Of a stretch of 64,000 nt of DNA, positions 6,574 through 41,502 are shown one piece after another. The position numbers were made by a program, and so were the translations under genes. Location: NCBI GenBank assembly GCA_964001175.1, contig CAXFAS010000004.1, positions 7,497 to 71,496 of the forward strand. Reading direction: 5' to 3'. This stretch comes from an uncultured euryarchaeote (GTDB taxonomy: Archaea > Thermoplasmatota > Poseidoniia > Poseidoniales > Poseidoniaceae). The notes under the pieces are model-generated. The model did no database searches, was not told the origin of the DNA, and was given only the letters and a program-made list of their open reading frames with translations. Numbering within the stretch: position 1 is the stretch's first letter; each line of letters opens with the position of its first letter.

Positions 6574-6632
6574 AAACTAGGCACGGCTAAGACGCTTCTT
6601 AATATGCCCGAATTTTGCTGATAGCATTTTAC

Positions 6633-7874: not shown

Positions 7875-8073
7875 TTGAATATCTCCTTTAATATCCACAT
7901 CTTGAACCGAAATTTAAGAGGAAACCCTCTCAATTTTCCAAAGCCGCAAGACGAATCATGAGGCGTGAACAGGATGTGAACAAATCTCCGACAATCCAAT
8001 ACTTATTGAATGCTCTTGTTGAAAAATCATATTTTTATCGATTTTTAATGAGCAACTAATTCAAGAACAGTAA

Positions 8074-9197: not shown

Positions 9198-9222
9198 AAC
9201 ACCGGTTATTCTTAGCATTGTT

Positions 9223-18940: not shown

Positions 18941-19292
18941 TGAACCTACAATGGTCTTAGTGGCTCGTAAAGACTTGAAACTTTCAACAGGTAAATTAGC
19001 AGTCCAATGTGCACATGCAGCAACAAGTTGTACTATAATTGCAATCAAAAAGGAGAAGCGATTATTTGAACGTTGGAAGAATAACGGTGCAAGAAAAATT
19101 TGTCTCCAAGTAGATGACTTAAATTCTTTACAGATGATAGCAGGTCAAGCACAGTCCTCGAATTTAATCACTCATATCGTAAAGGATGCAGGTCACACTG
19201 AGATACCTCCAGGAACGGTAACAGTTCTTGGAATTGGACCTGGGCCAAGAAGAAGCATCGATGCTATAGTTCAAGACTTGAAGCCTTATTGA
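18924..19292 (+). CDS. pth2: Peptidyl-tRNA hydrolase, archaeal/eukaryotic type (Pth2), copy 1
   Basis: Motifs GKLAVQCAHAA, KICLQV and KDAGHTEIPPGTVTVLGIGP. The conserved core begins at the internal Met at 18951 (MVLVARKDLKLSTGK), which would give 113 aa with no overlap onto the upstream gene. Confidence 0.85.
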   Translation: MLSNHNEPTMVLVARKDLKLSTGKLAVQCAHAATSCTIIAIKKEKRLFERWKNNGARKICLQVDDLNSLQMIAGQAQSSNLITHIVKDAGHTEIPPGTVTVLGIGPGPRRSIDAIVQDLKPY

Positions 19293-19320: not shown

Positions 19321-19740
19321 ATGGGTATACGTTCTTTCATCCATAGGTTAACCGCTCCTAGTCCAAAGAGAAGTATTTTGATCGATGAAGAAGTAAAAAT
19401 GGTCTTTATCATAAATTCTGAATTGAAGATGGGTAAAGGTAAAATTGCTGCACAGGTAGGTCATGCCGCTGTATCATCTACCTTGAAATCTGGAGATAAA
19501 ACACCTGAACTACTCGAAGCATGGCTGGCATCAGGGCAGAAGAAAATATGTGTCAAAGGTAATGATGCTGAACATTTACTTCAGTTAGAAAAACAATCTA
19601 GAGAAAGAGATATTACTACCGTGAAAATTAACGATGCAGGACATACTCAGATACCTTCAGGCTCTCTAACAGTATTATCATTAGGCCCTGATTTGGAGAC
19701 AAATTTGAATAAGATTACTGGAGATTTGAAACTTCTATAA
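19321..19740 (+). CDS. pth2: Peptidyl-tRNA hydrolase Pth2, copy 2 (divergent paralogue)
   Basis: Motifs GKIAAQVGHAA, KICVKG and NDAGHTQIPSGSLTVLSLGP. The conserved core begins at the internal Met at 19399 (MVFIINSELKMGKGK), also giving 113 aa. The longer ORF adds a 26-aa basic N-terminal extension. Confidence 0.8.
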   Translation: MGIRSFIHRLTAPSPKRSILIDEEVKMVFIINSELKMGKGKIAAQVGHAAVSSTLKSGDKTPELLEAWLASGQKKICVKGNDAEHLLQLEKQSRERDITTVKINDAGHTQIPSGSLTVLSLGPDLETNLNKITGDLKLL

Positions 19741-20822: not shown

Positions 20823-20870
20823 TTGTGCCTTTTATTGAAATACTCTCGATATTTTAAAATCCGAGAGATT

Positions 20871-23192
20871 ATGTCTAACAAGGGCCAAAAATGTCAAATT
20901 TGTAAATCAAAAGCATCTGTTAAAGGGCTATGTCACTTATGTAATTCATTGGTAAAGAATGTTAGAAAGAAATCTTGGAATAAAGAGATTCCTGAGGACA
21001 TAAACCTAAGAGCGATCGAAATGGTCGGAGGCGGTGAACAAACTACTCCTAAACGTTGGAAATCTTTTGAGAAATCGGTCGGCGAAACAGAATTAACCAA
21101 CTGGGCCAAATTAGAAAATAACACAGACCCAGTTCTAGAATTTCCTTGTGATAAAGAAAAAGGCTTAGAAATTTGTTCGGAACTGGAAGGAGGGGCTAGA
21201 CTTAACGCGAAGGATAGATCAATTCTTCATCAGGGGTTTCAAATGATCAATGATACACGAATTTCATTTCTGGCATCTAAGGTAATAATTAATGGTAGAG
21301 TTTTACCCAATGATGTCCCTGTAGCGTCGATTGTAAGAATAATTTATGATCAAAAAGCGAGGATAGGCTGGGATATTTCGCAATTAGTTATTGCATTAGG
21401 TTCAATCAATTTCCCCACTGGAGGCAATATAAATGAGCGATATAATTTCCGAGTAAGACAGCGAAGAAGACATGTTGACAGAGACTCGGTATTAGCAACA
21501 CTATCCTGGATTGAATGGATGGCTGAAGAAAATATCGCACCTCCTGAAAACTATCGGCTACATCCATTATCAGTCTGGGCTAGAGACTTAAGATTGAGAT
21601 TACTAGAACAAAGTGGAAGAGGATTTCAAGAAACAGTAAATATTGCATTTCATAACCATCCAGGTGGAATGGAACAAATTAGCCGTTTTCCATGGATAGA
21701 TGAATGGAAAAATTATCATTCGCCAACAATTCACAATACTCCAGGTTCATGGCCGTTAAACATTTTTTCAATGAACTTAAAATTCAAAGTTAGAAATAAA
21801 CAAAATTCTACCCGTCTTGCAAGCGTACCAAATAGGCCATGTATTTGGGCAGCACTAATCGCTCTTGCATTCTCTCCCGCGTCATCTAAAAATGGACATC
21901 TCTTGTATTCAGTACAGTATAACTGGACACATCAACAAGAAGCAATAGTTGACATCCCCGCTCCATTGCAAAGATCAATTCAGTTATTGAACGAAGTAAT
22001 TGATGGAAATTCATCTGAAGTTTTTGTCGAACAAGACACTTTACTTGTGGTAGGACGGCTTGGCCATTTTTATGAGGTTAAGGTAGGGGAAGGAGCTCAT
22101 GGCGCTCCATATATAATTAGACATGTATCTTCATTGAAACCAAGAAAGTCTCAGCCTATATGTATACACAGCGGAAGGTTTCATTCAAATTTACCTTTAG
22201 GTGACACGATTGCTTCCGTGGTCTTGTCGCTACTAGATGATATTTCAATTTCTCAACGTGTTGATAGTTTGAGGCAAGAACTTAGTAATAAACAACCGAT
22301 TGGATTTCCTTCACTACTCTCAAAACAGCATATACAATTACTTGATAGTGATGCACTGAAAGAGTTCACAAAAAGTCTCAGAGAACAAACGCCAAGATGG
22401 TTATCAAGAGAACAGTTGGAATGGGACGTAATTGAAGAAGAAGGCTTCGGCCCTGCAGAAAGAGTTAGGCAGCAATTCAATTACATAATGCGTAGAAATA
22501 GATATTACATCGAGCTTAGAGAAGGTAAGTCGGATGAGGAAGACGAGGCAAGCAAGGTGATCATTGATGACTTGGAAAAGAGTAATTCCAAGGCGTCCAT
22601 TTCCAAACTTGTTAAAATATGGAGGAAGGAATTCAAACCGATAATGGATTCCGATAACCCCGTAGTGTTCGATCGCTTTTGGAATCATTTCCATGGGCGC
22701 AGAGACTGGATTTATTTGCGTAACAATGGACGGCCAGAAAATGAACATCCAATTGGAGATATTAGAGATGGTGAAAGAAGATATTGCGAGGTAATTCCTC
22801 GGGTATGGGAGGCGTTAATTCTACAACCTGTGGGCGCTCAAGTAACTCTTTCAACAGTCAATGATGGTGAAATTTCTTTTCAATATTGTCAGTTAAGAGT
22901 AACTGTAAGAAATCAAGCTGAGCGAAATTTACTCAAACGACTATTGAATATGTTAGGCTATCAAGAAGATGAGGGGGACCAACAAGAACGTCTTCAAGTA
23001 TATTATCGAAGAGACCATCCGCGCCCTAGAAATCGTAGGATGCTTACCAACGTATTAACGAGATTCCAATCCCGAATGGGTGCAAGAGGCGCGCCACCAT
23101 GGTGGTGGCATTATGCTGATGTTACTCCACCACCACAAGAAATACCCGAGTTTCGTTGGCAATTACAAGAAGATCTCACAGATAATAGATGA
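20871..23192 (+). CDS. Large hypothetical protein with N-terminal CxxC...CxxC zinc ribbon (orphan)
   Basis: CQICKSKASVKGLCHLCNS lies at the N-terminus. There are basic patches (RVRQRRRHVDRD, RRDHPRPRNRR) and a C-terminal APPWWWHY...PPPQEIPEF. The ORF track starts at a TTG (20823) directly abutting the ltaE stop; I prefer the ATG at 20871 (MSNKGQKCQIC), which gives 773 aa. No catalytic motif is recognised. Confidence 0.6.
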   Translation: MSNKGQKCQICKSKASVKGLCHLCNSLVKNVRKKSWNKEIPEDINLRAIEMVGGGEQTTPKRWKSFEKSVGETELTNWAKLENNTDPVLEFPCDKEKGLEICSELEGGARLNAKDRSILHQGFQMINDTRISFLASKVIINGRVLPNDVPVASIVRIIYDQKARIGWDISQLVIALGSINFPTGGNINERYNFRVRQRRRHVDRDSVLATLSWIEWMAEENIAPPENYRLHPLSVWARDLRLRLLEQSGRGFQETVNIAFHNHPGGMEQISRFPWIDEWKNYHSPTIHNTPGSWPLNIFSMNLKFKVRNKQNSTRLASVPNRPCIWAALIALAFSPASSKNGHLLYSVQYNWTHQQEAIVDIPAPLQRSIQLLNEVIDGNSSEVFVEQDTLLVVGRLGHFYEVKVGEGAHGAPYIIRHVSSLKPRKSQPICIHSGRFHSNLPLGDTIASVVLSLLDDISISQRVDSLRQELSNKQPIGFPSLLSKQHIQLLDSDALKEFTKSLREQTPRWLSREQLEWDVIEEEGFGPAERVRQQFNYIMRRNRYYIELREGKSDEEDEASKVIIDDLEKSNSKASISKLVKIWRKEFKPIMDSDNPVVFDRFWNHFHGRRDWIYLRNNGRPENEHPIGDIRDGERRYCEVIPRVWEALILQPVGAQVTLSTVNDGEISFQYCQLRVTVRNQAERNLLKRLLNMLGYQEDEGDQQERLQVYYRRDHPRPRNRRMLTNVLTRFQSRMGARGAPPWWWHYADVTPPPQEIPEFRWQLQEDLTDNR

Positions 23193-25545: not shown

Positions 25546-25554
25546 AGAGGAGGC
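25546..25554 (+). promoter_or_regulatory. Shine-Dalgarno-like site (GAGAGGAGG) for the AddB-like gene
   Basis: GAGAGGAGG ends 6 nt before the ATG at 25561. This supports 25561 rather than the TTG at 25543 as the start. Confidence 0.5.
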
Positions 25555-25560: not shown

Positions 25561-28500
25561 ATGTTAGATGGAAAACAGAAAGCAAACATCTCGATTGAAG
25601 CGACTCCTAGTGGAAAAAGTCTTCCCGATTGGCTGTTTGAATCATTAGCATCTAATCAATCCCGTGAAGTTATTATCATTTACCCTAATGAAAGTTCAAG
25701 AAAGTCAGCATTGAATAAATTGGCCGATGTGACTTCATACATCGATTCGTCAAAGCACATGACCATACAACGCTTATTTGATACACTTCATCTCGATTTT
25801 AGGTTACCAAGTAAAATGCAAGACGATGCATTACTCTTCTCAATTGTCCATCAAAGAACCCAACAACATGCTCACAATGGGCAGCTCCCACTAATGTTTT
25901 CTCCGATAAAAGGTAGAATATGGAGTGAGTACAAGACTGAAAGGTTACAGTCATTACATAGAGAGTTAAGCGAATTAAAAAGTCCTTGGAGATGGGAAAA
26001 CGATCCTGGCGTAAAAGAATTTCACAATATACTAAAAAAAATTGAACAACAAACGAATAGCACATATCCGGATTTAATGAAAAGTAATTTATTAGAAAGG
26101 TTGAATTTTGCAGTTCAAGAAAAAGAGGTTCCTTTCAGTTTATCAGGAGTTGAAGGCATCATTATTCTTGACCATGCGCCAGATTTTAGCGAAATAAATC
26201 GATTGCTATTACAAAAGATATCCCGTATAACTCCAATCCATCAATTATGCAATCCAGGATCTTTCCGTCTAGGATTTCATGGTGCTTTTGTAGAAGATAT
26301 CGAATGGTGCGACGAAACCACAATACCCAAATGGATACCTAAGCATGAAGTGTGGCGATACCCCAAACAAGCCAATTGGATTTCACCAGTTGGAAAGTTA
26401 AGAAGTACACAAATTCATCGAATTTCCCTGGAAAGAAAACATCATAATATTGATACAACGTTTCAATTAATTAAGAACTATCTTTCGTCGAATGACGGTA
26501 AAGTAATTGTTATAGATGCTGGATTAAAGCATAATAGCAGAGCATGGAAAAGTCGATTAAATGATATGGGAATAATCTGTGATTCCAAAGCCAAAACTCT
26601 CATTGAGCAACCATCCATTGCAGGACTGATCACTCTCTTACAAATTGGAGATGGCCTCGAGGCATGGTCATTTGAGAAATTTAGAAGGCTAATAGAAAAC
26701 AACGGCCTTCCAATAGAATTTTCTTCATTCAATGAATTGATACATGCTACCGAAAAAGGTTGGAAGCCGAAACCACACCTAGATATTTTAGAAAAAATCT
26801 CACGAAGTTTTCATGTTTTAGGAGGCCCAGGGGCATTAAGAAGATGGTTGAAAACCTTGGAAAACGCGAAACCAATTATCGGAGATGACATTGAATTAGT
26901 AAGACAGAAATTAGAGGAGACCCAGTGGTGGCTTGCAAATATCTGTCGGTTATGGGCACCATTATATGAAGAAGCAAAAGATTACAGTAATGAATCATTT
27001 ATTGGATGCTCAACAGGCAGTAAACTTCCTCTTATTGAAGAATTAAGTCATGGAAATAATTGGATTAATGAAATTTACAGATCAATTAACTGGAAACGCC
27101 TTACTCTATTAGATGCAGAGTATTCCAACTCCATTACCGGATTACAAAAATTGATTGAAGAACACCATCGCCTAATGTTTTCATTGAATGAAATTGGATT
27201 AAAAACCCCCAACTCTGGTGAAGATTTCATAAGACACTTGATGAAAATTATTCGTAAAACTAAATTGTCAAATTCAAGACTTGAATCTGCCAATGTGAAG
27301 GTTTTGACACCGTTAGAAGCATTTGGTTTGGAAGCGGATTTGATAATTTTATCTGGATTGGATGTAGATTCATGGTCGATGAAAGCCCCTAAAATCCCAT
27401 GGTTAGATTCGGAGTCAAGATTACAGTTGGGATTACTTAATTCAGATATTGAGATTAGAAAAGGACGACATCATTTGAAACATTTTCTTAATGCTTCTGA
27501 AACCGTTGTGATTCTTGATACTAGTGAAGATGAATCGGTAGGTCCCGCAGCACCATTGGTTGAATTTTTAGAAGATGCGAAGCGGAGTAAGCAATTCCAA
27601 CAACTTAGTATTATACCATCATTTATCTCTGAAAATGAATATGATGAAAGTAATCTTGATAGATCTTGGGACCTCAAATCTCAAGCAGAAGAAGAACCAA
27701 ACATTTGGTTGACTCCTAGGCCTTATTCGATGTCCATGGGGGACAGTGGTGCAATAGGCCATAGGTCTGGATTTAGAGGCAGAGACGCCCGTCAACGTAC
27801 AGGCTTAAATTTAGCCAGTGGTAGAAAGGTTACTACTCGCCCGATTTCGATTAATAATTTAGCATCAGCCCATGAATTTTCAATTTATAATGACCGACTT
27901 ATCCGTCAACCAAGTCATAAAAATATCAACAAGGAAGAGTATCTTCCTTGGGAATCAAGAGAATTAATGGTTTCAGTTGATGATTTAACTATGCGGCCTA
28001 CTAAGTCTCAGGTTATTATTGGTTCAAAAGATGCAAAGGAGTGGCCACATCTTGGCATGAAAGGTTCTCGAAGTAAAGGTCCAGCAATCGATCCAAGACC
28101 TCTACCTATGTTTGATTCTGGAAGCGAATCAATACAATCTATTACTGGATTTATTTCTCAACCAATTATTCGTAAAAAATGGTCTGCTAGTAGGATTCAA
28201 TCATGGTTAAAATGTCCCCGTCAGGCATGGCTTGAGAAACACCTAGGTGCTAGAGAATTAGAACAACCGACAGAGGATATAGACGACAGGGTGAGAGGAC
28301 TATTAGTTCATGATATAGAAGGCGCAATATTGGAAGAGCATGGAATTAAAATCGCCGGTGAGCCTAGTAAAATTACCCTTCCATTATCCAAAGGACCGTT
28401 GGATACTATAGAGAAGGTTTGGAAAGTGGCATTAAATTATCTTGAACTTAATGCAGAATGGCTTACCAGATCTAATGCTGTTGCTCATCACAGATGTAGA

Positions 28501-29286
28501 GATATGATTGGGTTTACTTCAGAAGAGTGGAACTTGTATCTGCAAGGAGAAAAAGACTTACCTCCTAGGGGCAGAATTGGGAGGCTTCTAGAAGCCGATT
28601 TTTCTCTAGAAAATTCAGCCCCTATAGCCTGTGAATGGGTATTATCCATGGATAGTAAAAATAGTGTATCGCTACAATCTAAATCAGATAATGGTTCATT
28701 AGTATCTTTTGAATTAACAGGTAGAATAGATCGAGTTGATTGTATAGTATTAACTAAAGAAATGCGAGAAAAAGCCATCTTAGACGGTATATTATCTGAA
28801 GATGAAACAAAACAACAAAGATGGATTATAATTAGAGACATGAAGAACATAAATGGTCCAAAGAAAGAGGATAGAGGAGACCGCCATCGAAGAGCTATAT
28901 TTGATGAAGTGCAATTAGGGTTATACGCTAAAGCATGGGAAATCGCTTATCCAACAGATAGAGTTGTAGGTGTTGGTATTAGCGAGATAGGTGAAACAAC
29001 GACTCATTATGTTGAACTTGATTCAAGCGTTAAGAAATATATTCAAGACTTATCAATAGGGGAAATCACAGATTATACTTCTCTCCATCATCGTCCACTA
29101 TTCGATAAAGAATTTATATCGAGTAACGGATTTAGGTCCTGGATGGATGAACGTTTAAGGACATCTGCAAGGGTGATTGAACACTCTAACTCCGGTTTTG
29201 CTCAACCAGTTCCAGGAAAACATTGTTCATATTGCTCATCACGAAGAATGTGTCCTTCTGCATTATTGGGAGGTGATGAGAATTGA
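25561..29286 (+). CDS. addB: AddB/RexB-like helicase-nuclease subunit (inactive helicase-like scaffold plus C-terminal Cys4 PD-(D/E)XK nuclease)
   Basis: There is no Walker A in the N-terminal region. The C-terminal RecB-family nuclease motifs are TGRIDRVD, IIRDMK (D-x-K) and QLGLYAKAW (QxxxY). One upstream Cys (WLKCPRQAW) and CSYCSSRRMC (Cx2Cx5C) bracket them, as in AddB/Cas4 Fe-S nucleases. The gene is translationally coupled to the UvrD/AddA-like gene. Confidence 0.75.
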   Translation: MLDGKQKANISIEATPSGKSLPDWLFESLASNQSREVIIIYPNESSRKSALNKLADVTSYIDSSKHMTIQRLFDTLHLDFRLPSKMQDDALLFSIVHQRTQQHAHNGQLPLMFSPIKGRIWSEYKTERLQSLHRELSELKSPWRWENDPGVKEFHNILKKIEQQTNSTYPDLMKSNLLERLNFAVQEKEVPFSLSGVEGIIILDHAPDFSEINRLLLQKISRITPIHQLCNPGSFRLGFHGAFVEDIEWCDETTIPKWIPKHEVWRYPKQANWISPVGKLRSTQIHRISLERKHHNIDTTFQLIKNYLSSNDGKVIVIDAGLKHNSRAWKSRLNDMGIICDSKAKTLIEQPSIAGLITLLQIGDGLEAWSFEKFRRLIENNGLPIEFSSFNELIHATEKGWKPKPHLDILEKISRSFHVLGGPGALRRWLKTLENAKPIIGDDIELVRQKLEETQWWLANICRLWAPLYEEAKDYSNESFIGCSTGSKLPLIEELSHGNNWINEIYRSINWKRLTLLDAEYSNSITGLQKLIEEHHRLMFSLNEIGLKTPNSGEDFIRHLMKIIRKTKLSNSRLESANVKVLTPLEAFGLEADLIILSGLDVDSWSMKAPKIPWLDSESRLQLGLLNSDIEIRKGRHHLKHFLNASETVVILDTSEDESVGPAAPLVEFLEDAKRSKQFQQLSIIPSFISENEYDESNLDRSWDLKSQAEEEPNIWLTPRPYSMSMGDSGAIGHRSGFRGRDARQRTGLNLASGRKVTTRPISINNLASAHEFSIYNDRLIRQPSHKNINKEEYLPWESRELMVSVDDLTMRPTKSQVIIGSKDAKEWPHLGMKGSRSKGPAIDPRPLPMFDSGSESIQSITGFISQPIIRKKWSASRIQSWLKCPRQAWLEKHLGARELEQPTEDIDDRVRGLLVHDIEGAILEEHGIKIAGEPSKITLPLSKGPLDTIEKVWKVALNYLELNAEWLTRSNAVAHHRCRDMIGFTSEEWNLYLQGEKDLPPRGRIGRLLEADFSLENSAPIACEWVLSMDSKNSVSLQSKSDNGSLVSFELTGRIDRVDCIVLTKEMREKAILDGILSEDETKQQRWIIIRDMKNINGPKKEDRGDRHRRAIFDEVQLGLYAKAWEIAYPTDRVVGVGISEIGETTTHYVELDSSVKKYIQDLSIGEITDYTSLHHRPLFDKEFISSNGFRSWMDERLRTSARVIEHSNSGFAQPVPGKHCSYCSSRRMCPSALLGGDEN
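29269..29286 (+). promoter_or_regulatory. Translational-coupling junction: GGAGG, then a TTG start overlapping the TGA stop (aaTTGA)
   Basis: GGAGG lies at 29269-29273. The TTG at 29283-29285 overlaps the TGA at 29284-29286. The Walker A motif begins at codon 23 of the downstream ORF and no in-frame ATG precedes it, so the TTG start is required. Confidence 0.6.
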
Positions 29287-32200
29287 TTCCATTCAATAAT
29301 AGTCAAAAATTAGGATTAGATTTGGATAAGCATATTGCTTTAGATGCAGGTGCAGGTACCGGAAAAACCGCAGTTATGGCAGAAAGATATGTTCAACATT
29401 TAATCACTCCAGAACAACGCGCAACAATTCTATTACCGAAAGGGCCTAGAAAACCATTAGAGGGCCATGGTGCTCTAAGGGCCCCTGCTAGAGAAAGAAC
29501 TGAACTAGGCGACTGGTCCGGTCTATTGCCGAATGAAGTCGTAGCGATTACATTTACTAAGAAAGCAGCATCTGAGTTGAAATCTAGAATCCGAAAAAGA
29601 CTAGCACTCACTCGAACCTTGGCAGATTCTAATAAGGAAGAGGGTATTTACGACCCTAGGATTCGTCGTTCAGGAGATTTAGAAATGTTACTTTCGGGGC
29701 TAGATGAAGCGCCCATTTCCACCATTGATGCTTTTCTCTCTCAATTACTTGCACCACACTTAGATTTAGTGGCTGTAAATCCTACTAGAGAACAAATTTC
29801 CGAAGTAAGGTCGCCGTTGTTGGTAAAGGAAACCATACACTCTGCATGGCGAATTAGGACAATCAATGATGCTAGAGAAGCCGGGATTAAAGGAGACATT
29901 GGAGGATTCATTGCTGCAAGGAATAGACTCGCAATTTTAGTTGGTGGGCAATCGAGGGCAGAAGTAATTCTGACTGGATTATTGAATACATCTTTATTTG
30001 TCGATGAATCTAAACGTTCCTTGAAGAAGAGAAGTAAACTAAAGGGAATTAATTGGGACGGGGTCTCTGCAATTGATTCAGAAATTATTCTTGAGATGTT
30101 CCTTGAGCCAGCCGCTGATATTATCGATAGTTTTGCTGATAAATTACATTTTGAATTGAATAATTGGGTTGACCAAATTCTACTTCATCCTAATGAATTA
30201 GTTTTAGCTTGTGAAACAGAACAGGGGACTAGAAGCACCCGATTTAATCAATTAGTTAATCTGGCTAGACATTCTTATCCATCTTCAAAGACAGATAGGT
30301 TACAATGGGTATGGATGGTTTCTTTAGCCGCTGCATCATATTCCTCGTTGATAAAAGATGGAATGACATTCTTCCCTAAAGGAGGTTTACCCCAGCCCAA
30401 TCATTGTAATGAATGGATGCCAGGATTGTTTCCCAAGTCTAAGGTTAGAGGAATTACGGGCAAGGTAAAGGATTCAATTTATGAAAATTTGAAAAATATA
30501 GCAGCAAAAATGCATGAACATTTGGCAAGTAAAAATGGACGTCTAGTAAGATTACTTGGGCGTAGTTCATATTTATTCAACCCAATATTTAATTTACAAT
30601 TTATGGATTCAGATTGCCCACTGATAGCGCATCCTTTATCCAATGAATTTAGCGACATTGCTCCACAAGGTAAATTACGAATCACAGATGATCTGCAGAC
30701 AAATGTATTAGCAGATTTGTTGTTGGTTCACAACGGGTGTAAGGAGATACTAAACTTAAAGAAAATAAATGAAGGAGTTCATGATTTTGATGATACTCAA
30801 AGGCTGGCTGCGGATTTACTCCTTGCTCGGTGTCCTGACTCGGTTCGTTATGAATATCCGCAAAGTGTAGTTGAGGCATTGGATAGTTTAGATGATGAAC
30901 CTTGGTTAGATCTACATATTTCAGCGGCATTAACAATAGCCCAAGAACACCCAAGTTGCTTTGAAGACTTACAGAAAAGATTTCAGGTACTTCAAATGTT
31001 AAGAAGAAACTTTAGTGCATTCATTATTGACGAATATCAAGATACTAATCCCGCACATTTTAGACTATTGTCACGTCTATGGGGGCGAAGAAGTCGTTTA
31101 GCAGACGACCCGTCTTCCCCTATGGGGCCGTGGGACCCTACAGTATGTATTGTGGGCGATATGAAACAGAGTATCTATCGATTTAGACAGGCAGAAGTAA
31201 CCGTCATGCTAAGAACAGTCGAGGCAATAAAAAATATCAATTATACAGAACAAAGTGAATCAAGATTAAGCCATTTGAAGAAAGCCAACCATGGTAGAGA
31301 CCCAAGACCAGTTGGGGCGGGAGGAGAAATAGGATCTTTCTCCAATCAACATCCTCCATCTGGAACAAAATTAGAATCAAAGCCTTGGGAACATGTACCT
31401 GTTGAGTTTGAAGATTCAAGTGGCGACACTAAAAAATATGTTCAAATATCTCCCGAGCGAGTAAAAAGAAGATTACTCGGCCATATCGATTTAACTTCTA
31501 ATCATCGTACTTTGCATAATTTGATGCTAACCATGAATGGAATTTTTGAAGATGTTTTTGCTAGTCGGCATTATGTTCTTCCAGGAGATTGGCATGCAAA
31601 ATCTCAAAATTTAAAACCGGCTCGCAAAGATGAAAATAAAGGGGTTTTGGAATGGTTATTACCTTTACAAACAAATGTAACTATACCGACAGCTGATTTG
31701 AATAATCCAAATAATGTTTTTTCAGATCCGAATGCTAAAAATATCCATCTTGAACATGAATTAATTGCGCTAAGACTTCACAGTCTTCTGACAGAAAATA
31801 ATCCAAAGGTTTGGGATAGTGAAACAGCCTCATTCAAAGAGATTGAAAGTGGCACAAAAAATATCTTGCCAAAGGATATTATGATTCTCGTTCACTCTCG
31901 AAAACATATTCCTGATTTACTACAGAGGCTCGGCAATAAAGGGATACCTGTCATCTCGGATAGACAAGGAGAATTACTAAAGCGACCAGTCATTAATGCC
32001 TTAATGTCGGTTTTACATTTAGTCGCGTACCCCAAATCAAAATTTGCAGCGATTTCTTTTGCTCGCTCACCGATACTTGGATTTACTGATAAACAAGTAA
32101 ATACAATGTTTTCTGAAATTAAAAACTCAGATAACTGGTGGGATGTAATTACAAAATATGCACCATGTAGTAGAAGTAAAAATCTTATCGAACATCTGAA

Positions 32201-34283
32201 AAATCTTGTAATTAAGGGCGGAGTTCACGAAATATTAGATGCTGTTTTAGACCATTCAGATTTACTAATTGCATTCCCAGACGATACCTCTAGGCAGAAT
32301 GCAGAATTATGGTGTGGCTTAGTGTACAATATTGGGCGTGAGTATGGACATGACCCAACTGAGATATATTCTCACCTTAATTCACTTCAAAGCCTAGGTA
32401 ACAAAGGTCCGCAAGCAATTACCATTCCATCCGGTGGAGCAGTTAGAATTATGACAATTCATGGTGCTAAAGGTTTACAATCAAAAGTAGTTGTTGTAGC
32501 AGGGATGTTCCATGCAGGAAAATCAGACTCATCACTAGCGTCTAGAAATAATGTTCTAGTAACACCAGAAATAGTTGCAGGTCGCATTAATCCATGGTCT
32601 TCAAGAGATAGGCCTTATGATGGGCTTTGGGAATTTGCCAAAAATATGGACTCAGCCCAAAGACAGGCAGAACGTAGAAGAGAATTTTATGTTGCATTGA
32701 CTAGAGTTAGAGACCATCTAATTGTGGTCGGAACTCCAGATAAGAATTGTCAAATAGATTCTAAATCGAATAATTTGAAATTTAAAAGCAAACCATCTCT
32801 AAAGACCATGGGTTCGATGTGGATGGATGGACTTAGAAGTCTATCTCATTCCAATCAAGTAAAAGATTCTCCATGGCTTTTACCAAACGATCGATTCGGC
32901 GAAGAATTAGACACATATAGTGAAACCCAGGTAGAAATTAATCCGTTTGCAATATCTAATGATTCAATGCTTGGAGCAGATTCAATCAAATCACTTCGTG
33001 TATTTCATTCACCAGAATGTTTTGATAAGAATAACCTAATCTCTCCTCTAACCAAATGGCAGAATATAGAATCTAGATTGGATAAATTATCTGCTGAAGA
33101 TAAATCTAACACAGATTCAGAGGATGATAATATTGCAGTAGGGCATACTATTAGGATGAGTGCCCATAGTCTTGATACTAGTTTCCAGTGTAAGCGCAGG
33201 CATTGGTTAGAACAGGTTAAAGGATGGAGTTCTGAACCCATCTATTTGATTAAAAATGAACATAATTCAATTGAACAAGAGTCAGTTTTTGTTAGCCCCA
33301 CACTATTTGGAACAATTGTGCATCGTTTGCTAGAAATCGGTTTAAAAAATCCTAGTAAAGTCAACGGCCCTCCAGTGATTCCTTTACCTTCTAGTTGGCA
33401 AAACGAGAATGATAATTTACTAAAAGATAAAAATTTAGTCGAGGAAGTACTTCGCGAAGAAGGTATTACTCAGAAGTCAACAGGCATAGAGAAGAAACGA
33501 GCGCTTGCAATGGAAGAAAGAATCTCTCAGATTTCTAACTTAGTAGATAATGGCCTTATTGGCAGATATGCAGAAGGAGAGGTCCATCACGACAGGATAC
33601 CGGAGGGGCTTAGAACCGAGTTACCATTTTTCTATCAACATGCGATTGAAATGAAAGATGTTTATAGATTGGGCTTTTCTATTGAAGGGATAAGAAGATT
33701 ATCAAAAGTTGAGAATACCAAATTCACATTTGATGGCAGAGCAGATTTGGTTCTTGCTTTTAGAGATAAAGATGGAATAGGATACTTACAAGTTGTAGAT
33801 CTAAAAACCACAGGGTGCCGGAATGATTTCAATTCAGAAGATCCAAAATCTGGGTCTCCACTACAGGTTGTTGAAGGTGACCTTTTGAGTAGATTCCCTC
33901 AAACTGCTGCTGAAAGACAAATCCTTCATGAGCATAGACTACAATTAGCTCTTTATTCAATGGCATTAGAGGCAATAGAACTAGATAAGTCTGAAGAATT
34001 GAGAAGAATAATTCTACCTCCAGCAATTTTGGTGGGGGCATCTGGAAGAAGTATTGAATTAACTCTAGACGAGTACAAACAAGCTAAAACTGATTTAGAG
34101 AATCATTTACTTTGGATGGCTGAATTATCCGCAGAAGCAAACTCTTTACAAGAACCAGACCGATTGGAAGGGCTTGATAATGCTACTTGTAAACAATGTC
34201 CATTTTATAGAGGAGACATCAAATTGTGTGGGCCCAAGCACTTATCGATTCCTTTAATCAAGAGTTCCTCTGACCAGCAATGA
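29283..34283 (+). CDS. addA: AddA/UvrD-family SF1 helicase with C-terminal Cys4 PD-(D/E)XK nuclease
   Basis: SF1 motifs: I GAGTGKT, Ia ITFTKKAASELKSRI, II IIDEYQDTN, III VGDMKQSIYRFRQA, V TIHGAKGLQSKVVVV, VI FYVALTRVRDHL. The nuclease module has GRADLVLAF, VVDLKT and QLALYSMAL. Its Cys residues are FQCKRRHW and CKQCPFYRGDIKLC. At 1666 aa it is very long for the family. Confidence 0.85.
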   Translation: MIPFNNSQKLGLDLDKHIALDAGAGTGKTAVMAERYVQHLITPEQRATILLPKGPRKPLEGHGALRAPARERTELGDWSGLLPNEVVAITFTKKAASELKSRIRKRLALTRTLADSNKEEGIYDPRIRRSGDLEMLLSGLDEAPISTIDAFLSQLLAPHLDLVAVNPTREQISEVRSPLLVKETIHSAWRIRTINDAREAGIKGDIGGFIAARNRLAILVGGQSRAEVILTGLLNTSLFVDESKRSLKKRSKLKGINWDGVSAIDSEIILEMFLEPAADIIDSFADKLHFELNNWVDQILLHPNELVLACETEQGTRSTRFNQLVNLARHSYPSSKTDRLQWVWMVSLAAASYSSLIKDGMTFFPKGGLPQPNHCNEWMPGLFPKSKVRGITGKVKDSIYENLKNIAAKMHEHLASKNGRLVRLLGRSSYLFNPIFNLQFMDSDCPLIAHPLSNEFSDIAPQGKLRITDDLQTNVLADLLLVHNGCKEILNLKKINEGVHDFDDTQRLAADLLLARCPDSVRYEYPQSVVEALDSLDDEPWLDLHISAALTIAQEHPSCFEDLQKRFQVLQMLRRNFSAFIIDEYQDTNPAHFRLLSRLWGRRSRLADDPSSPMGPWDPTVCIVGDMKQSIYRFRQAEVTVMLRTVEAIKNINYTEQSESRLSHLKKANHGRDPRPVGAGGEIGSFSNQHPPSGTKLESKPWEHVPVEFEDSSGDTKKYVQISPERVKRRLLGHIDLTSNHRTLHNLMLTMNGIFEDVFASRHYVLPGDWHAKSQNLKPARKDENKGVLEWLLPLQTNVTIPTADLNNPNNVFSDPNAKNIHLEHELIALRLHSLLTENNPKVWDSETASFKEIESGTKNILPKDIMILVHSRKHIPDLLQRLGNKGIPVISDRQGELLKRPVINALMSVLHLVAYPKSKFAAISFARSPILGFTDKQVNTMFSEIKNSDNWWDVITKYAPCSRSKNLIEHLKNLVIKGGVHEILDAVLDHSDLLIAFPDDTSRQNAELWCGLVYNIGREYGHDPTEIYSHLNSLQSLGNKGPQAITIPSGGAVRIMTIHGAKGLQSKVVVVAGMFHAGKSDSSLASRNNVLVTPEIVAGRINPWSSRDRPYDGLWEFAKNMDSAQRQAERRREFYVALTRVRDHLIVVGTPDKNCQIDSKSNNLKFKSKPSLKTMGSMWMDGLRSLSHSNQVKDSPWLLPNDRFGEELDTYSETQVEINPFAISNDSMLGADSIKSLRVFHSPECFDKNNLISPLTKWQNIESRLDKLSAEDKSNTDSEDDNIAVGHTIRMSAHSLDTSFQCKRRHWLEQVKGWSSEPIYLIKNEHNSIEQESVFVSPTLFGTIVHRLLEIGLKNPSKVNGPPVIPLPSSWQNENDNLLKDKNLVEEVLREEGITQKSTGIEKKRALAMEERISQISNLVDNGLIGRYAEGEVHHDRIPEGLRTELPFFYQHAIEMKDVYRLGFSIEGIRRLSKVENTKFTFDGRADLVLAFRDKDGIGYLQVVDLKTTGCRNDFNSEDPKSGSPLQVVEGDLLSRFPQTAAERQILHEHRLQLALYSMALEAIELDKSEELRRIILPPAILVGASGRSIELTLDEYKQAKTDLENHLLWMAELSAEANSLQEPDRLEGLDNATCKQCPFYRGDIKLCGPKHLSIPLIKSSSDQQ

Positions 34284-39300: not shown

Positions 39301-41502
39301 ATGGAACCAGTATTTATTTCAGCAGCTCTTGTACTTGCCTCATTGATTGCAACATCTTATTTCATTACAAATGGATTAGGGACAATGGGAGAACCACTTC
39401 GACAATTTTCTTTGTTTTTGATGAATAAAGCGCCGGTTGGGTTAGTTGATTTATTCAGTGATAAGCCTGGAAGCGGTAGTCGTACTTGGATAAAATTTGG
39501 TTCCGGTTGGTTTCTTTTAGCCTCAATTTCCGGTTTTCTCGCTATTTGGCATAAATACGATCCAACTGCACTTGATTCTCTAGCTAGTATTGGTTGGTCT
39601 TATGATGATGGTTCTGCTTTACAGGACTTCACCATGGCTTCATTGAAGATGGCTTTCATCTATCTAATGGTTGGAGGAGGAATGGTTGCAGTTTCCCGTT
39701 CAGCTAATAATCGAATGGCTAGTGAAGCAAACGCTTCTATGGTGGCAGTAGTTTATACAGCATTGACTATTTTGAGTTTGATTTTACTACCAATAGTATT
39801 CTCATTCATCACAGTTTCAGATGAAGCTGGAAAGTTAGATCTAGTTTCGATGGTGATTAACTACGGTATTGCTTCGATGTTATTTACAGCAGTTTTGATT
39901 AATGTATTATCCACTTACTCAATGCGTAGAGATGGAACATCATCAGTTTCTGCTTGGTTCTTCATAATGGCATTGATGACAAAATTAGTAGCATCTACAT
40001 TCTATCTCTTTGGTGAATTTGCAGGCTCAACACAGACCGTATGGATGGCTGAACAAATGCTCAATGGCTGGGTCCCTCTAGCATTGATGTTTTCTGTAGC
40101 ATACCATCTCATACCCTTTACTACACAGAAACCAATTTGGTCTCATTCATTATTGAATGCTGGAATGGTATTGCTATTTGTTACAGTTCCGCCATTCTTT
40201 ATTGGAGAGGTTGATGCTGGTGAATTATTACAGAATGTAGGAGCGCTTCTTCTAACGTTTTCACTAATTCCAATACTTGCAAACTGTTTCAATTTACTTG
40301 CAACTGCATCTTCTAATTCTTCTGCCATTTTGAGAAATCCTGGGGCATTAGCAGCAACCCTTGCAATGTTTATATTACCATTATTCGCAGTTGGAGGCTA
40401 TTTCACTAGTATGGATACATTCACAGGCACCGATAAATTAGCAGACTTGGCTACTATGGTTGATAGTAGTTTCATGTTCACCGTTGGTGGTTTAATGATG
40501 GTATCGACTATTTTCGCATCCTATCCTCTTGCATCAGGAAATCAATTAGAAGATTCTTCGAGAGCAAATCTTGCAGTTTGGTTCATCTTATTTGGCGGTT
40601 TAGCCTCAGTTATTACAATGCTTATTGGCGGATTTACTGAAATCGCAGTTAGTGATTCTGGCGTTGAAGATGCCGTCGCCTCATCGTTAGGATTTTACTT
40701 AACCGCTTCAGCACTATTCTATCTAGTTCCTATCGCTTCAATAATGGCAATATTGGTGTTGATTAGAACTGGTAATTCCTCTAATAAGATTGAAGAAATA
40801 GGACAAGAGATTACAGATATCGATGTTTATGTGTTGGGCCAAGGAACAACAACAATCCAACAATTATTAGGTAGAGGAGTAGGAGTTACAACTCAAATTG
40901 TCGTTGGAGAATCTGAAGAAACAGATGGCGGTTCAACAGTCATTGGCGTTAATGCAGAATTACATAATGACGAAATTACAGAATTCCCAGAAGAAGAAAT
41001 TGTAGAGGAAGAAGAGGCAGAAGAAGATAAAGGTCCTGCTAAAGAATTAGTTATGCTTCTAGACTATCTTAAATCATCCGACAAGACAGTATTCGATTTC
41101 TTCCGTTCTATCGATTTAGATTCATCCGGAGAAATCGATAGTTTTGAATTCCAACAAGCACTAAAGAATAGTAATGTTGGTGACTTCCCTCCTTGGGAAA
41201 TCGATGGACTTGTCTCTGCTATTGACATCGATGGTGACGGAAGAATTAACCTTCCAGAATTAGATATTTCACTTGCTAGAATCGCTGCTCAAATTTATCC
41301 TTCTGATGAAGAAGAAGCTTCTGAAGAAGTTTCAGAAGAGGGTGAAGAAGAGGCTGAAGAACAATCAGAAGAATCTTCAAAGCCTTCTGAAGCAGATTTA
41401 AACAAGATGAAGAAAAATGAACTTATTGAGGTAGCAAAGTCTCTTGGAGTTTCAACATCTGGAACTAAGAAAGACTTGATTGAAGCGATCTTAGCTGCTT
41501 GA
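39301..41502 (+). CDS. Polytopic membrane protein (about 12 or more TM helices) with C-terminal EF-hand pair and HeH/SAP-like motif
   Basis: 733 aa. Roughly the first 500 aa are hydrophobic helices. The soluble acidic tail carries two canonical EF-hand loops and ends in a Rho_N/SAP-like helix-extended-helix motif. Confidence 0.7.
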   Translation: MEPVFISAALVLASLIATSYFITNGLGTMGEPLRQFSLFLMNKAPVGLVDLFSDKPGSGSRTWIKFGSGWFLLASISGFLAIWHKYDPTALDSLASIGWSYDDGSALQDFTMASLKMAFIYLMVGGGMVAVSRSANNRMASEANASMVAVVYTALTILSLILLPIVFSFITVSDEAGKLDLVSMVINYGIASMLFTAVLINVLSTYSMRRDGTSSVSAWFFIMALMTKLVASTFYLFGEFAGSTQTVWMAEQMLNGWVPLALMFSVAYHLIPFTTQKPIWSHSLLNAGMVLLFVTVPPFFIGEVDAGELLQNVGALLLTFSLIPILANCFNLLATASSNSSAILRNPGALAATLAMFILPLFAVGGYFTSMDTFTGTDKLADLATMVDSSFMFTVGGLMMVSTIFASYPLASGNQLEDSSRANLAVWFILFGGLASVITMLIGGFTEIAVSDSGVEDAVASSLGFYLTASALFYLVPIASIMAILVLIRTGNSSNKIEEIGQEITDIDVYVLGQGTTTIQQLLGRGVGVTTQIVVGESEETDGGSTVIGVNAELHNDEITEFPEEEIVEEEEAEEDKGPAKELVMLLDYLKSSDKTVFDFFRSIDLDSSGEIDSFEFQQALKNSNVGDFPPWEIDGLVSAIDIDGDGRINLPELDISLARIAAQIYPSDEEEASEEVSEEGEEEAEEQSEESSKPSEADLNKMKKNELIEVAKSLGVSTSGTKKDLIEAILAA
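41113..41148 (+). other. EF-hand Ca2+-binding loop 1 (DLDSSGEIDSFE)
   Basis: It fits the canonical 12-residue loop: D1, D3, S5, G6, I8, D9, E12. Confidence 0.75.
41224..41259 (+). other. EF-hand Ca2+-binding loop 2 (DIDGDGRINLPE)
   Basis: It fits the canonical loop: D1, D3, D5, G6, I8, N9, E12. It starts 111 nt after the start of loop 1, which is normal spacing for a paired EF-hand. Confidence 0.8.
41392..41499 (+). other. HeH / SAP / Rho_N-like motif at the extreme C-terminus
   Basis: ADLNKMKKNELIEVAKSLGVSTSGTKKDLIEAILAA follows the pattern L..m...EL.e.Ak.lGv...g.KkdLIeaIl. Confidence 0.55.

What the first reader, a model, noticed from the sequence alone, without database searches (positions are those of the whole stretch)
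25561..34283. AddAB-type two-subunit helicase-nuclease in an archaeal genome, with Cys4 (Fe-S type) RecB nuclease modules on both subunits
Two coupled giant ORFs of 1241 and 1666 aa occupy 8.7 kb.

The downstream protein has every SF1/UvrD motif (GAGTGKT, TFTKKAASELKSRI, IIDEYQDTN, VGDMKQSIYRFRQA, TIHGAKGLQSKVVVV, YVALTRVRDHL). It also has a C-terminal PD-(D/E)XK module (GRADLV, VVDLKT, QLALYSMAL).

The upstream protein lacks a Walker A motif but ends in the same nuclease fold (GRIDRVD, IIRDMK, QLGLYAKAW). That is the AddB/RexB architecture.

Both nuclease modules are bracketed by a 1+3 cysteine arrangement: WLKC-PRQAW ... CSYCSSRRMC in one, and FQC-KRRHW ... CKQCPFYRGDIKLC in the other. This is the AddB/Cas4-type iron-sulfur staple. 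As far as I recall, only AddB carries it in the Bacillus paradigm.

Canonical archaeal end resection uses Mre11-Rad50-HerA-NurA. A bacterial-style AddAB embedded between MCM/GatE/Pth2 and other core archaeal genes is therefore unusual. It suggests either interdomain transfer or a non-canonical role, for example degradation of invading linear DNA. The AddA-like subunit is also several hundred residues longer than the bacterial AddA proteins I remember.
Basis: partly seen in the sequence, partly recalled or inferred. Interest (0 to 1): 0.72.

Follow-up and report, generated by a model that had tools for sequence, protein, structure and literature searches.

The report
Archaeal AddAB-type DNA-end helicase-nuclease pair
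Two overlapping giant genes in this Marine Group II archaeon encode a very divergent version of the bacterial AddAB DNA-break-processing machine; the pair is conserved across the whole archaeal order, but it is a variant of a known machine, not a new kind.

Summary
ORF1 (25561-29286, 1241 aa) and ORF2 (29283-34283, 1666 aa) overlap by TTGA.

ORF2 is a complete UvrD-type SF1A motor with a C-terminal PD-(D/E)XK nuclease. Its closest solved relative is B. subtilis AddA. ORF1 has only a nuclease domain by sequence. An AlphaFold model (pLDDT 86) matches AddB best (Foldseek E 6e-20, TM 0.52-0.54), then AdnA and RecC.

Catalytic residues are invariant in about 120 orthologue clusters of each subunit. 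The 1+3 cysteines are complete in 113/118 AddB-like and 100/119 AddA-like clusters.

The window is from Poseidoniales. The pair lies in one conserved housekeeping neighbourhood in every locus with enough flank, so it is an old core gene pair, not a mobile or defence island.

- Haloarchaeal megaplasmids carry AddAB-like pairs.
- Cyanobacterial AddAB-like pairs also carry Cys4 on both subunits.
- Transfer of AddAB into archaea was proposed in 2009.

What is particular here:
- Extreme divergence.
- About 430 extra residues in conserved inserts.
- CX2CX9C spacing.
- An invariant DPRP motif in both subunits.

Fe-S binding, complex formation and activity are inferred. Whether HerA-NurA is present could not be checked.

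The parts
25549..25553 (+). GGAGG Shine-Dalgarno-like element 7 nt upstream of the ORF1 ATG
   Evidence: read directly from the sequence
25561..29286 (+). ORF1, AddB-like subunit (1241 aa): inactivated SF1 helicase-like scaffold plus C-terminal nuclease
25561..27660 (+). ORF1 N-terminal helicase-like region (about aa 1-700). It has no Walker A and no sequence match to any family. Its predicted fold matches the AddB/AdnA/RecC/UvrD class.
   Evidence: the domain boundary is approximate
28090..28101 (+). Invariant DPRP tetrapeptide (aa 844-847) in the coil linker of ORF1
28177..29256 (+). ORF1 PD-(D/E)XK nuclease domain (aa 873-1232). Catalytic residues H917, D1057, D1093, K1095, Q1118 and Y1122 are invariant in 119/119 sequences.
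28213..28215 (+). ORF1 Cys885, first ligand of the putative iron staple (WLKCPRQAW)
   Evidence: present in 118/118 orthologue clusters
29224..29253 (+). ORF1 C-terminal Cys triad C1222-x2-C1225-x5-C1231, the same spacing as AddB
   Evidence: 113/118 clusters keep three Cys
29269..29273 (+). GGAGG 9 nt upstream of the ORF2 TTG start, inside the end of ORF1
29283..29286 (+). TTGA overlap of the ORF2 start and the ORF1 stop, indicating translational coupling
   Evidence: the adjacency is conserved in 76/80 loci
29283..34283 (+). ORF2, AddA-like subunit (1666 aa): SF1A motor plus C-terminal nuclease
29349..29369 (+). Helicase motif I / Walker A, GAGTGKT (aa 23-29), invariant
31023..31049 (+). Helicase motif II, IIDEYQDTN (aa 581-589)
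31152..31193 (+). Helicase motif III, VGDMKQSIYRFRQA (aa 624-637)
31299..31310 (+). Invariant DPRP tetrapeptide (aa 673-676) in the lineage-specific insert after motif III
32454..32720 (+). Helicase motifs V (TIHGAKGLQ, aa 1058) and VI (YVALTRVRD, aa 1136)
33153..34205 (+). ORF2 PD-(D/E)XK nuclease domain (aa 1291-1641). Catalytic residues H1347, D1488, D1506, K1508, Q1554 and Y1558 are invariant in 120/120 sequences.
33189..33191 (+). ORF2 Cys1303, first ligand of the putative second iron staple (FQCKRRHW)
   Evidence: 114/119 clusters; also kept in the deep members L081 and L083
34188..34229 (+). ORF2 C-terminal Cys triad C1636-x2-C1639-x9-C1649
   Evidence: 102/119 clusters keep three Cys; 94 of them have the x2/x9 spacing

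Best explanation
ORF1 and ORF2 encode the two subunits of an AddAB-type DNA-end-processing enzyme with one motor and two nucleases. It is a vertically inherited core function of Marine Group II archaea (Poseidoniales).

Shown here by sequence and predicted fold:
- ORF2 (AddA-like) carries an intact SF1A UvrD-like ATPase/translocase and an intact RecB-family nuclease.
- ORF1 (AddB-like) is a helicase-shaped scaffold without motor motifs, with a second intact RecB-family nuclease.
- Both nuclease domains are bracketed by one N-terminal and three C-terminal cysteines, as in AddB, AdnA, Cas4 and Dna2.

Inferred by analogy with B. subtilis AddAB (PMC3321194):
- The two proteins form a heterodimer that binds a duplex DNA end.
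- The ORF2 motor pulls the 3'-ended strand 3'->5' and unwinds the duplex.
- That strand passes over the dead helicase domain of ORF1 to the ORF2 nuclease. The 5'-ended strand is fed to the ORF1 nuclease.
- Each nuclease fold is stapled by a [4Fe-4S] cluster.
- The product is a 3' single-stranded tail for the archaeal recombinase RadA. A side effect is degradation of unprotected linear DNA.

The ancestor of the order most likely acquired the pair from bacteria. That event would be old, and the donor is no longer identifiable.
For: Domains and motifs:
- Pfam and NCBIfam hits are as expected. The best NCBIfam model for ORF2 is addA_Gpos (172 bits), ahead of recB (130), addA_alphas (117) and pcrA (91).
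- A profile of 62 orthologues against PDB sequences ranks B. subtilis AddA first (1.3e-33), then AdnB (4e-19), UvrD1, UvrD, PcrA and RecB (2e-14).
- All helicase motifs are invariant.

Structure predictions:
- The ORF1 model has pLDDT 86 and pTM 0.71. Foldseek ranks AddB chains at 1-5 (E 6e-20, TM 0.52/0.54 over about 1150 residues), then AdnA (3e-15). UvrD follows, and RecC scores TM 0.46-0.50.
- The ORF2 C-terminal model has pLDDT 90. It matches AdnA, AddA, Dna2, ACE1/Cas4 and Exo5 nucleases, most of which bind Fe-S.

Conservation:
- The catalytic H-D-D-K-Q-Y residues are invariant in both families.
- The full Cys4 set is present in 100/119 AddA-like and 113/118 AddB-like clusters. It is kept in the deepest members.

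Gene organisation:
- The addB-then-addA order with overlapping stop and start is also found in Bacillus, cyanobacteria and haloarchaea.
- The pair is adjacent in 76/80 loci.
- The same GatE-PQQ-lyase-...-TFB | addBA | MTase-PIP-...-PSD-rSAM neighbourhood occurs in 38-42 of 42 full-flank loci, depending on the gene, and in the most divergent members.
- GC content is no different from the surroundings.
- There is no copy on viral contigs.
- PADLOC gives only generic UvrD/GajB matches.
Against: - No biochemical property was tested.
- Both proteins score far below the NCBIfam AddA/AddB equivalog cut-offs (172 vs 708; 38.7 vs 486).
- ORF1 lacks the N-terminal Walker A site of B. subtilis AddB.
- The nuclease domains are not recognisable against PDB sequences by single-sequence search.
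- The heterodimer could not be modelled.
- The AddA-like Cys triad has been lost in some clades, so that cluster is not indispensable.
- A rough neighbour-joining tree does not place ORF2 with the other AddA proteins. It groups it weakly with E. coli RecB in 143/200 resamplings, probably through long-branch attraction.
- Archaea use RadA, and no AddAB-RadA cooperation has been described.
Confidence: 0.85

Rival explanations
1. The pair is primarily an anti-virus or anti-plasmid nuclease that destroys invading linear DNA. It would be comparable to the defence role of RecBCD/AddAB or to UvrD-Cas4 defence proteins, rather than a recombinational repair enzyme.
For: - AddAB/RecBCD-type enzymes degrade linear DNA by their nature.
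- UvrD-Cas4-like fusions in bacteria and mesophilic archaea are linked to restriction-modification and Dcm/Vsr loci (PMC5704561).
- ORF2 gives weak GajB (Gabija UvrD helicase) matches.
Against: - The pair is a strictly conserved core gene pair in one housekeeping neighbourhood across the order. Defence genes are typically patchy and sit in islands.
- No restriction-modification, Dcm/Vsr, WYL or other defence genes are adjacent.
- The GajB matches (66 bits or less) are much weaker than the AddA match (172 bits) and cover only generic helicase motifs.
- The two roles are not exclusive in bacteria.
Confidence: 0.12
2. The pair is an AdnAB-type or RecBC(D)-type enzyme rather than AddAB-type. In the first case both subunits would bind and hydrolyse ATP. 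In the second, ORF1 would be a nuclease-dead RecC-like Chi scanner.
For: - AdnA and RecC are the second and third best structural classes for ORF1.
- ORF2 groups with E. coli RecB in 143/200 resamplings of a rough neighbour-joining tree.
- NCBIfam recB is the second-best model (130 bits).
Against: - ORF1 has no Walker A or B motif, and the family consensus shows none. AdnA retains both.
- ORF1 has an invariant nuclease active site and a Cys bracket, which RecC lacks.
- No RecD-like SF1B gene is in the window neighbourhood.
- AddA outscores RecB and AdnB in both profile tests.
Confidence: 0.03

Closest known systems
Bacillus subtilis AddAB (PDB 3U44/3U4Q/4CEH-4CEJ)
   Same: - Gene order addB then addA.
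- One active SF1A motor, on AddA.
- A helicase-shaped but inactive AddB.
- A RecB-family nuclease on each subunit.
- A 1+3 Cys iron staple with CX2CX5C spacing on AddB.
- It is the best sequence match for ORF2 and the best fold match for ORF1.
   Different: - ORF2 is about 430 aa longer. It has conserved inserts after motif I, before motif II, between motifs II and III, after motif III and before the nuclease.
- ORF2 carries its own Cys4 bracket (CX2CX9C). Bacillus AddA has none (PMC3321194).
- ORF1 lacks the AddB Walker A site.
- Sequence similarity is far below the equivalog thresholds.
- The host is an archaeon that uses RadA.
Cyanobacterial AddAB-like pairs (e.g. Synechococcus sp. NIES-970 plasmid3, BAW97989/BAW97988)
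   Same: - Two overlapping genes, addB-like then addA-like.
- The AddB-like protein has no Walker A.
- Both subunits carry a Cas4-type 1+3 Cys bracket.
- 106 of 120 cyanobacterial AddA homologue clusters have the C-terminal triad.
   Different: - The proteins are much shorter (890 + 1078 aa).
- The spacing is CX2CX5C on both subunits.
- They lack the MGII inserts and the DPRP motif.
- They are not specifically related to the MGII family: MGII+cyanobacteria form a clade in 6/200 resamplings, and profile-profile alignment covers only the helicase part.
Haloarchaeal megaplasmid AddAB-like pairs (Halobacterium salinarum R1 pHS3 WP_012289693/WP_012289692; Halapricum desulfuricans pHSR-Est01)
   Same: - The host is archaeal.
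- Gene order is addB-like then addA-like, overlapping.
- The AddB-like protein has CX2CX5C and no Walker A.
   Different: - The pairs are plasmid-borne and patchy, not chromosomal core genes.
- The AddA-like subunit has no C-terminal Cys triad.
- They are much closer to bacterial AddA (300-340 bits to the NCBIfam addA models, against 172 here).
- They are not sister to the MGII family (1/200 resamplings).
Mycobacterial AdnAB (PDB 6PPJ/6PPR/7SJR)
   Same: - A heterodimer of two UvrD-like/RecB-nuclease polypeptides.
- An Fe-S cluster in the nuclease of the non-lead subunit, AdnA (PMC8789073).
- AdnA is the second-best fold match for ORF1 and the best for the ORF2 nuclease domain.
   Different: - AdnA keeps ATP-binding motifs; ORF1 does not.
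- The Fe-S cluster is reported on AdnA only.
Archaeal Mre11-Rad50 / HerA-NurA end-resection system
   Same: The presumed cellular task is the same: producing 3' single-stranded tails at double-strand breaks for RadA.
   Different: The proteins and architecture are unrelated (a hexameric HerA translocase plus a NurA dimer). Whether Marine Group II also encodes this system was not tested here.

Membership tests
AddAB helicase-nuclease | Two adjacent co-oriented genes, addB upstream of addA, co-expressed | tested here: met
   There is a TTGA start/stop overlap. The adjacency holds in 76/80 related loci. Bacillus, cyanobacterial and haloarchaeal pairs have the same order.
AddAB helicase-nuclease | AddA: complete SF1A (UvrD/PcrA-like) motor motifs | tested here: met
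   Pfam hits UvrD-helicase and UvrD_C. Motifs I, Ia, II, III, IV, V and VI are invariant in 62 orthologues. The best PDB relative is AddA.
AddAB helicase-nuclease | AddA: C-terminal RecB-family nuclease with catalytic D...D-x-K | tested here: met
   PDDEXK_1 scores 8e-11. H1347, D1488, D1506, K1508, Q1554 and Y1558 are invariant in 120/120 sequences. The predicted fold matches AdnA/AddA/Dna2/Cas4 nucleases.
AddAB helicase-nuclease | AddB: N-terminal helicase-like fold without motor motifs | tested here: met
   This rests on a predicted structure only. The model has pLDDT 86. Foldseek's top hits are AddB chains (E 6e-20, TM 0.52-0.54). No helicase family is detectable by sequence.
AddAB helicase-nuclease | AddB: C-terminal RecB-family nuclease bracketed by 1+3 Cys (iron staple) | tested here: met
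   PDDEXK_1 scores 5e-16. C885 is present in 118/118 clusters and the CX2CX5C triad in 113/118. Metal binding itself was not tested.
AddAB helicase-nuclease | AddB N-terminal Walker A ATP-binding site (B. subtilis type) | tested here: not met
   ORF1 has no G-x4-GK[ST] motif, and the family consensus has none. The cyanobacterial and haloarchaeal AddB-like proteins also lack it, so this feature is not universal.
AddAB helicase-nuclease | Scores above curated NCBIfam equivalog cut-offs (addA_Gpos/addA_alphas; addB_Gpos/addB_alphas) | tested here: not met
   ORF2 scores 172 bits against a cut-off of 708. ORF1 scores 38.7 bits against 486.
AddAB helicase-nuclease | Heterodimer with ATP-dependent dsDNA-end exonuclease/helicase activity, regulated by a Chi sequence | not testable with these tools
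   This needs protein biochemistry or a multimer model. Complete genomes would be needed for a Chi-like motif search.
AdnAB | Both subunits retain Walker A/B ATPase motifs | tested here: not met
   ORF1 lacks them.
RecBCD | RecC-like subunit without a nuclease active site, plus a RecD SF1B helicase | tested here: not met
   ORF1 has an invariant nuclease site. No RecD-like gene lies nearby.
Iron-staple nucleases (AddB / AdnA / Cas4 / Dna2 / Exo5) | One Cys N-terminal and three Cys C-terminal of the PD-(D/E)XK core, coordinating a [4Fe-4S] cluster | tested here: inconclusive
   The Cys pattern is present and mostly conserved on both subunits. The ORF2 domain fold matches Fe-S nucleases. The ORF2 spacing is atypical (x9), and the triad is lost in 17/119 clusters. 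Cluster binding was not measured.
Stand-alone UvrD-Cas4 fusion proteins (Hudaiberdiev et al. 2017) | Single fused protein, stand-alone or next to type III R-M or Dcm/Vsr genes | tested here: not met
   ORF2 always has an AddB-like partner and a housekeeping context. Its phylogenetic position relative to that clade was not tested.

The most novel reading that the evidence does not exclude
Poseidoniales may have made a bacterial-type AddAB their main, or only, long-range end-resection machine. The enzyme would have been remodelled to work with archaeal partners such as RadA and RPA.

Three lineage-specific features would mark this remodelling:
- About 430 residues of order-specific inserts.
- A second [4Fe-4S] staple on the motor subunit.
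- An invariant DPRP docking motif present once in each subunit.

Under this reading, the scattered losses of one or the other Cys triad in some surface-ocean clades would be iron-sparing adaptations.
Probability: 0.2. Interest if true: 0.7.

Novelty: new variant of a known kind. Interest (0 to 1): 0.42.

Why it matters
Marine Group II are the most abundant archaea of the sunlit ocean and have never been cultured.

Reviews of archaeal double-strand-break repair describe Mre11-Rad50-HerA-NurA and do not mention AddAB (for example PMC8708640). The main MGII genomics papers do not mention this gene pair.

A whole archaeal order keeps a bacterial-type AddAB as a core, syntenic gene pair. This suggests a different or additional route to recombinational repair in these UV-exposed cells. 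It also offers a natural case of AddAB working with RadA instead of RecA.

For annotation, the result gives a specific name to two proteins. NCBI now labels them 'PD-(D/E)XK nuclease family protein' and 'UvrD-helicase domain-containing protein'; JGI/IMG labels the first 'hypothetical protein'.

It is not a new kind of machine.

Tried and rejected
- Single-sequence and profile searches of ORF1 against PDB sequences found nothing useful. The same held for both isolated nuclease domains. Structure prediction was needed.
A profile of five MGIIb sequences worked.
- The idea that the pair is a defence system was rejected on context and conservation.
- The idea that the haloarchaeal plasmid pairs are the source or sister of the MGII pair was rejected. 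phmmer scores are equidistant, and the clade appears in 1/200 resamplings.
- The idea that a Cys4 bracket on the AddA subunit is unique to this lineage was rejected after it was found throughout cyanobacterial AddA homologues.
- Profile-profile alignment of MGII and cyanobacterial AddA families covered only the helicase part. Homology of the two Cys4 modules is therefore unresolved.
- The neighbour-joining tree does not resolve the deep position of the family, and I do not rely on it.
- Literature searches for AddAB in Marine Group II or Thermoplasmatota found no description.
- Cromie 2009 and Yeeles 2009 are not held in the library.
- I could not census Mre11, Rad50, HerA or NurA in MGII genomes with the tools and caps available.
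Full report
**Observation**

ORF1 runs from the ATG at 25561 to 29286 (1241 aa). ORF2 runs from a TTG at 29283 to 34283 (1666 aa). The ORF2 start overlaps the ORF1 stop as TTGA. Each start is preceded by GGAGG, at 25549-25553 and 29269-29273.

Pfam finds UvrD-helicase (1e-32), UvrD_C (4e-16) and PDDEXK_1 (8e-11, aa 1291-1641) in ORF2. In ORF1 it finds only PDDEXK_1 (5e-16, aa 873-1232).

**Organism and distribution**

Both proteins have well over a hundred full-length orthologue clusters in public data. Where these are named, the names are Candidatus Poseidoniaceae, Poseidoniales or Thalassarchaeaceae. The window therefore comes from a Marine Group II archaeon.

- A scan of one genome per GTDB species found 391 relatives of ORF1. 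The best 80 are all Poseidoniales-type contigs, including the MG-II chromosome CM001443.1.
- One contig labelled Verrucomicrobiales carries archaeal GatE and TFB neighbours and is evidently mis-binned.
- In 76 of the 80 loci the AddA-like gene follows immediately on the same strand. The other four loci end at the contig edge.
- All 42 loci with full flanks share essentially the same neighbours: GatE, a PQQ-repeat protein, a beta-eliminating lyase, a TFB-like gene, a methyltransferase, proline iminopeptidase, phosphatidylserine decarboxylase and a radical-SAM protein.
- An exhaustive HMMER profile search with the AddB-like family found only 227 hits among 1.84 billion representative proteins. 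The divergent full-length hits I looked up all sit in the same GatE-Pth2-lyase-addB-addA block. One of them lies on a 71% GC, 3.0 Mb contig.
- GC content across the pair equals that of the window.
- No copy occurs on viral contigs.

The pair is thus an old, vertically inherited core feature of the order. It is not a recent import or a defence island.

**What the proteins are**

ORF2 keeps every SF1A motif invariant across 62 orthologues.

- Its best NCBIfam model is addA_Gpos (172 bits), ahead of recB (130), addA_alphas (117) and pcrA (91). All are far below the equivalog cut-offs.
- A family profile against PDB sequences ranks B. subtilis AddA first (1.3e-33). AdnB follows (4e-19), then UvrD1, UvrD, PcrA and RecB.

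ORF1 is unrecognisable by sequence outside its nuclease domain.

- An AlphaFold2 model of residues 1-1200 is confident (pLDDT 86, pTM 0.71).
- Foldseek ranks the five B. subtilis AddB chains first (E 6e-20 to 1.5e-17, TM 0.47-0.54 over the whole chain). AdnA comes next, then UvrD-type helicases. RecC scores TM 0.46-0.50.

ORF1 is therefore an AddB/AdnA/RecC-class inactivated helicase scaffold carrying a nuclease.

In both families the nuclease residues H, D, D-x-K and Q-x3-Y are invariant (120/120 and 119/119). Both nucleases should be active.

**The cysteines**

In the AddB-like family the first Cys (C885) is present in 118/118 clusters. The C-terminal triad is present in 113/118, mostly as CX2CX5C as in AddB. 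Two sub-clades use CX2CX2C or CXCX5C, and one clade has lost all three.

In the AddA-like family:
- C1303 is present in 114/119 clusters.
- Three C-terminal Cys are present in 102/119, and all four Cys in 100/119.
- The usual spacing is CX2CX9C. One clade uses CX8CX2C.
- A clade of about 1610-aa proteins and a few others have lost the triad.
- The two deepest members examined keep Cys4 on both subunits. The double bracket is therefore ancestral, with secondary losses.

A model of ORF2 residues 1160-1666 (pLDDT 90) matches AdnA, AddA, Dna2, ACE1/Cas4, Cas4 and Exo5 nuclease domains. Most of these are iron-staple nucleases. Cluster binding remains an inference. I could not inspect model coordinates, and the x9 spacing is atypical.

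**Extra length**

Compared with B. subtilis AddA (1232 aa), ORF2 has about 176 extra residues before motif II, about 70 between motifs III and IV, and about 170 after the helicase core.

Alignment to the cyanobacterial AddA family localises conserved inserts in four places:
- right after motif I (aa 41-77);
- around aa 506-560;
- between motifs II and III (aa 601-616);
- after motif III (aa ~652-733).

None of these has a Pfam match.

An unexpected detail is an invariant DPRP tetrapeptide that occurs once in each subunit. In ORF2 it is at aa 673-676, in the post-motif-III insert. In ORF1 it is at aa 844-847, in a coil linker. It is present in 119/119 and 117/118 clusters. It is absent from the haloarchaeal pairs, from all 120 cyanobacterial AddA homologues and their one examined AddB-like partner, and from Bacillus AddAB. 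The chance expectation is about 0.03 per protein.

**Comparison with what is known**

In the two structurally characterised paradigms the Fe-S cluster sits only on the non-lead subunit. That subunit is AddB in AddAB (PMC3321194, PMC3378879) and AdnA in AdnAB (PMC8789073).

Three findings lower the novelty.

1. A paper on Bacteroides AddAB cites Cromie 2009 for the suggestion that addAB was transferred 'even into the archaea' (PMC2887965).
2. A tblastn search of plasmids with ORF2 hits haloarchaeal megaplasmids best. Halobacterium salinarum R1 pHS3 and a Halapricum plasmid carry overlapping addB-like/addA-like pairs. The Halapricum pair sits next to Rad50/Mre11-like genes. Their AddB-like proteins have CX2CX5C, and their AddA-like proteins have no triad.
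3. A cyanobacterial plasmid pair (Synechococcus NIES-970) has a Cas4-type Cys4 on both subunits (YARCPQRF...CSYCAYSQIC in AddA). 106 of 120 cyanobacterial AddA homologue clusters share the triad, many of them chromosomal.

The 'double staple' therefore exists widely in bacteria. A 2017 survey had also noted UvrD-Cas4-like fusions in bacteria and mesophilic archaea (PMC5704561).

The MGII family is nevertheless a long-branch outlier. ORF2 scores only 81-115 bits against Bacillus, cyanobacterial and haloarchaeal AddA, whereas those score 165-220 bits among themselves. A rough neighbour-joining tree gives MGII monophyly in 200/200 resamplings. It gives no link to haloarchaea (1/200) or cyanobacteria (6/200). 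It also gives an unreliable attraction to E. coli RecB (143/200). No donor can be named.

**Mechanism**

The best-supported reading is an AddAB-type enzyme with one motor and two nucleases. ORF2 translocates 3'->5' and cuts the 3' strand. ORF1 scaffolds the complex and cuts the 5' strand. Each nuclease is stabilised by a [4Fe-4S] staple. The enzyme yields 3' tails for RadA and, incidentally, destroys unprotected linear DNA.

The domain content, intact active sites, fold class, gene coupling and conservation are shown here. Heterodimer formation, polarity, Fe-S binding, any Chi-like regulation and the partnership with RadA are inferred from B. subtilis AddAB.

A dedicated defence role is less likely because of the core, syntenic, housekeeping context and the lack of specific PADLOC matches. 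AdnAB-type and RecBCD-type readings fail on ORF1's missing ATPase motifs and its intact nuclease site.

**Limits**

That question decides whether this is a replacement of the archaeal resection system or an addition to it. I also could not model the heterodimer. Papers held in the library on MGII genomics and on archaeal DSB repair do not mention this gene pair.

**Verdict**

It is a strongly diverged, order-wide archaeal variant of a known bacterial machine, not a new class. Interest is moderate.

Noticed in passing
window 31299-31310 (ORF2 aa 673-676) and 28090-28101 (ORF1 aa 844-847): An invariant DPRP tetrapeptide occurs once in each subunit, in predicted loop or insert regions. It is present in 119/119 and 117/118 orthologue clusters. 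It is absent from the haloarchaeal, cyanobacterial and Bacillus AddAB proteins examined. The chance expectation is about 0.03 per protein. It may be a shared docking motif.
   Followed up: partly
orthologues P0039, P0057, P0063-P0077 (loci L035, L036, L038, L041) and P0143-P0148 (loci L020-L024, L029): The cysteine triads are lost clade by clade. A clade of about 1610-aa AddA-like proteins lost its triad while the partner AddB-like protein keeps its own. Another clade lost the AddB-like triad but keeps the first Cys. Some clades use altered spacings (CX8CX2C, CX2CX2C, CXCX5C).
   Followed up: partly
L085 (Halapricum desulfuricans plasmid) 2851-9745; L086 (Halobacterium salinarum R1 pHS3) 2815-9499: Haloarchaeal megaplasmids carry overlapping addB-like/addA-like gene pairs annotated only generically. 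In Halapricum the pair lies next to Rad50-like ('AAA family ATPase', DSB repair) and Mre11-like ('DNA repair exonuclease') genes.
   Followed up: partly
L087 (Synechococcus sp. NIES-970 plasmid3) 2099-8007; proteins P0472-P0591: Cyanobacteria widely encode a short AddAB-like pair with Cas4-type Cys4 on both subunits. A 2025 paper states that most cyanobacteria lack conventional RecBCD and AddAB (PMC12094033). Some homologues are annotated as BREX-3 BrxF fusions.
   Followed up: partly
L081 (ENA ERZ26167216, 3.0 Mb contig): A 71% GC, 3.0 Mb contig carries the same MCM-GatE-Pth2-...-addB-addA-...-PSD-rSAM synteny as the 39% GC window. It is a very divergent relative whose taxonomy I did not determine.
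   Followed up: no
L049 (NZEQ01000040.1, labelled Verrucomicrobiales bacterium ARS100): This contig carries archaeal GatE, TFB-like and the other MGII neighbours of the pair. It is almost certainly an MGII contig mis-binned into a bacterial MAG.
   Followed up: yes
window 46206-54557 (-): A giant 2783-aa ORF has no Pfam match at E <= 1e-3.
   Followed up: no
window 20868-23192 (+): An ORF of about 775 aa has a Cys-rich N-terminus (CQICKSKASVKGLCHLC) and no Pfam or PADLOC match. It is conserved as a neighbour two genes upstream of addB-like in 48 of 80 related loci.
   Followed up: partly
window 18924-19292 and 19321-19740 (+): Two tandem Pth2 (peptidyl-tRNA hydrolase) paralogues lie side by side.
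   Followed up: no
window 39301-41502 (+): A 733-aa protein combines EF-hand calcium-binding motifs with a C-terminal SAP DNA-binding domain. This combination is unusual for an archaeon.
   Followed up: no
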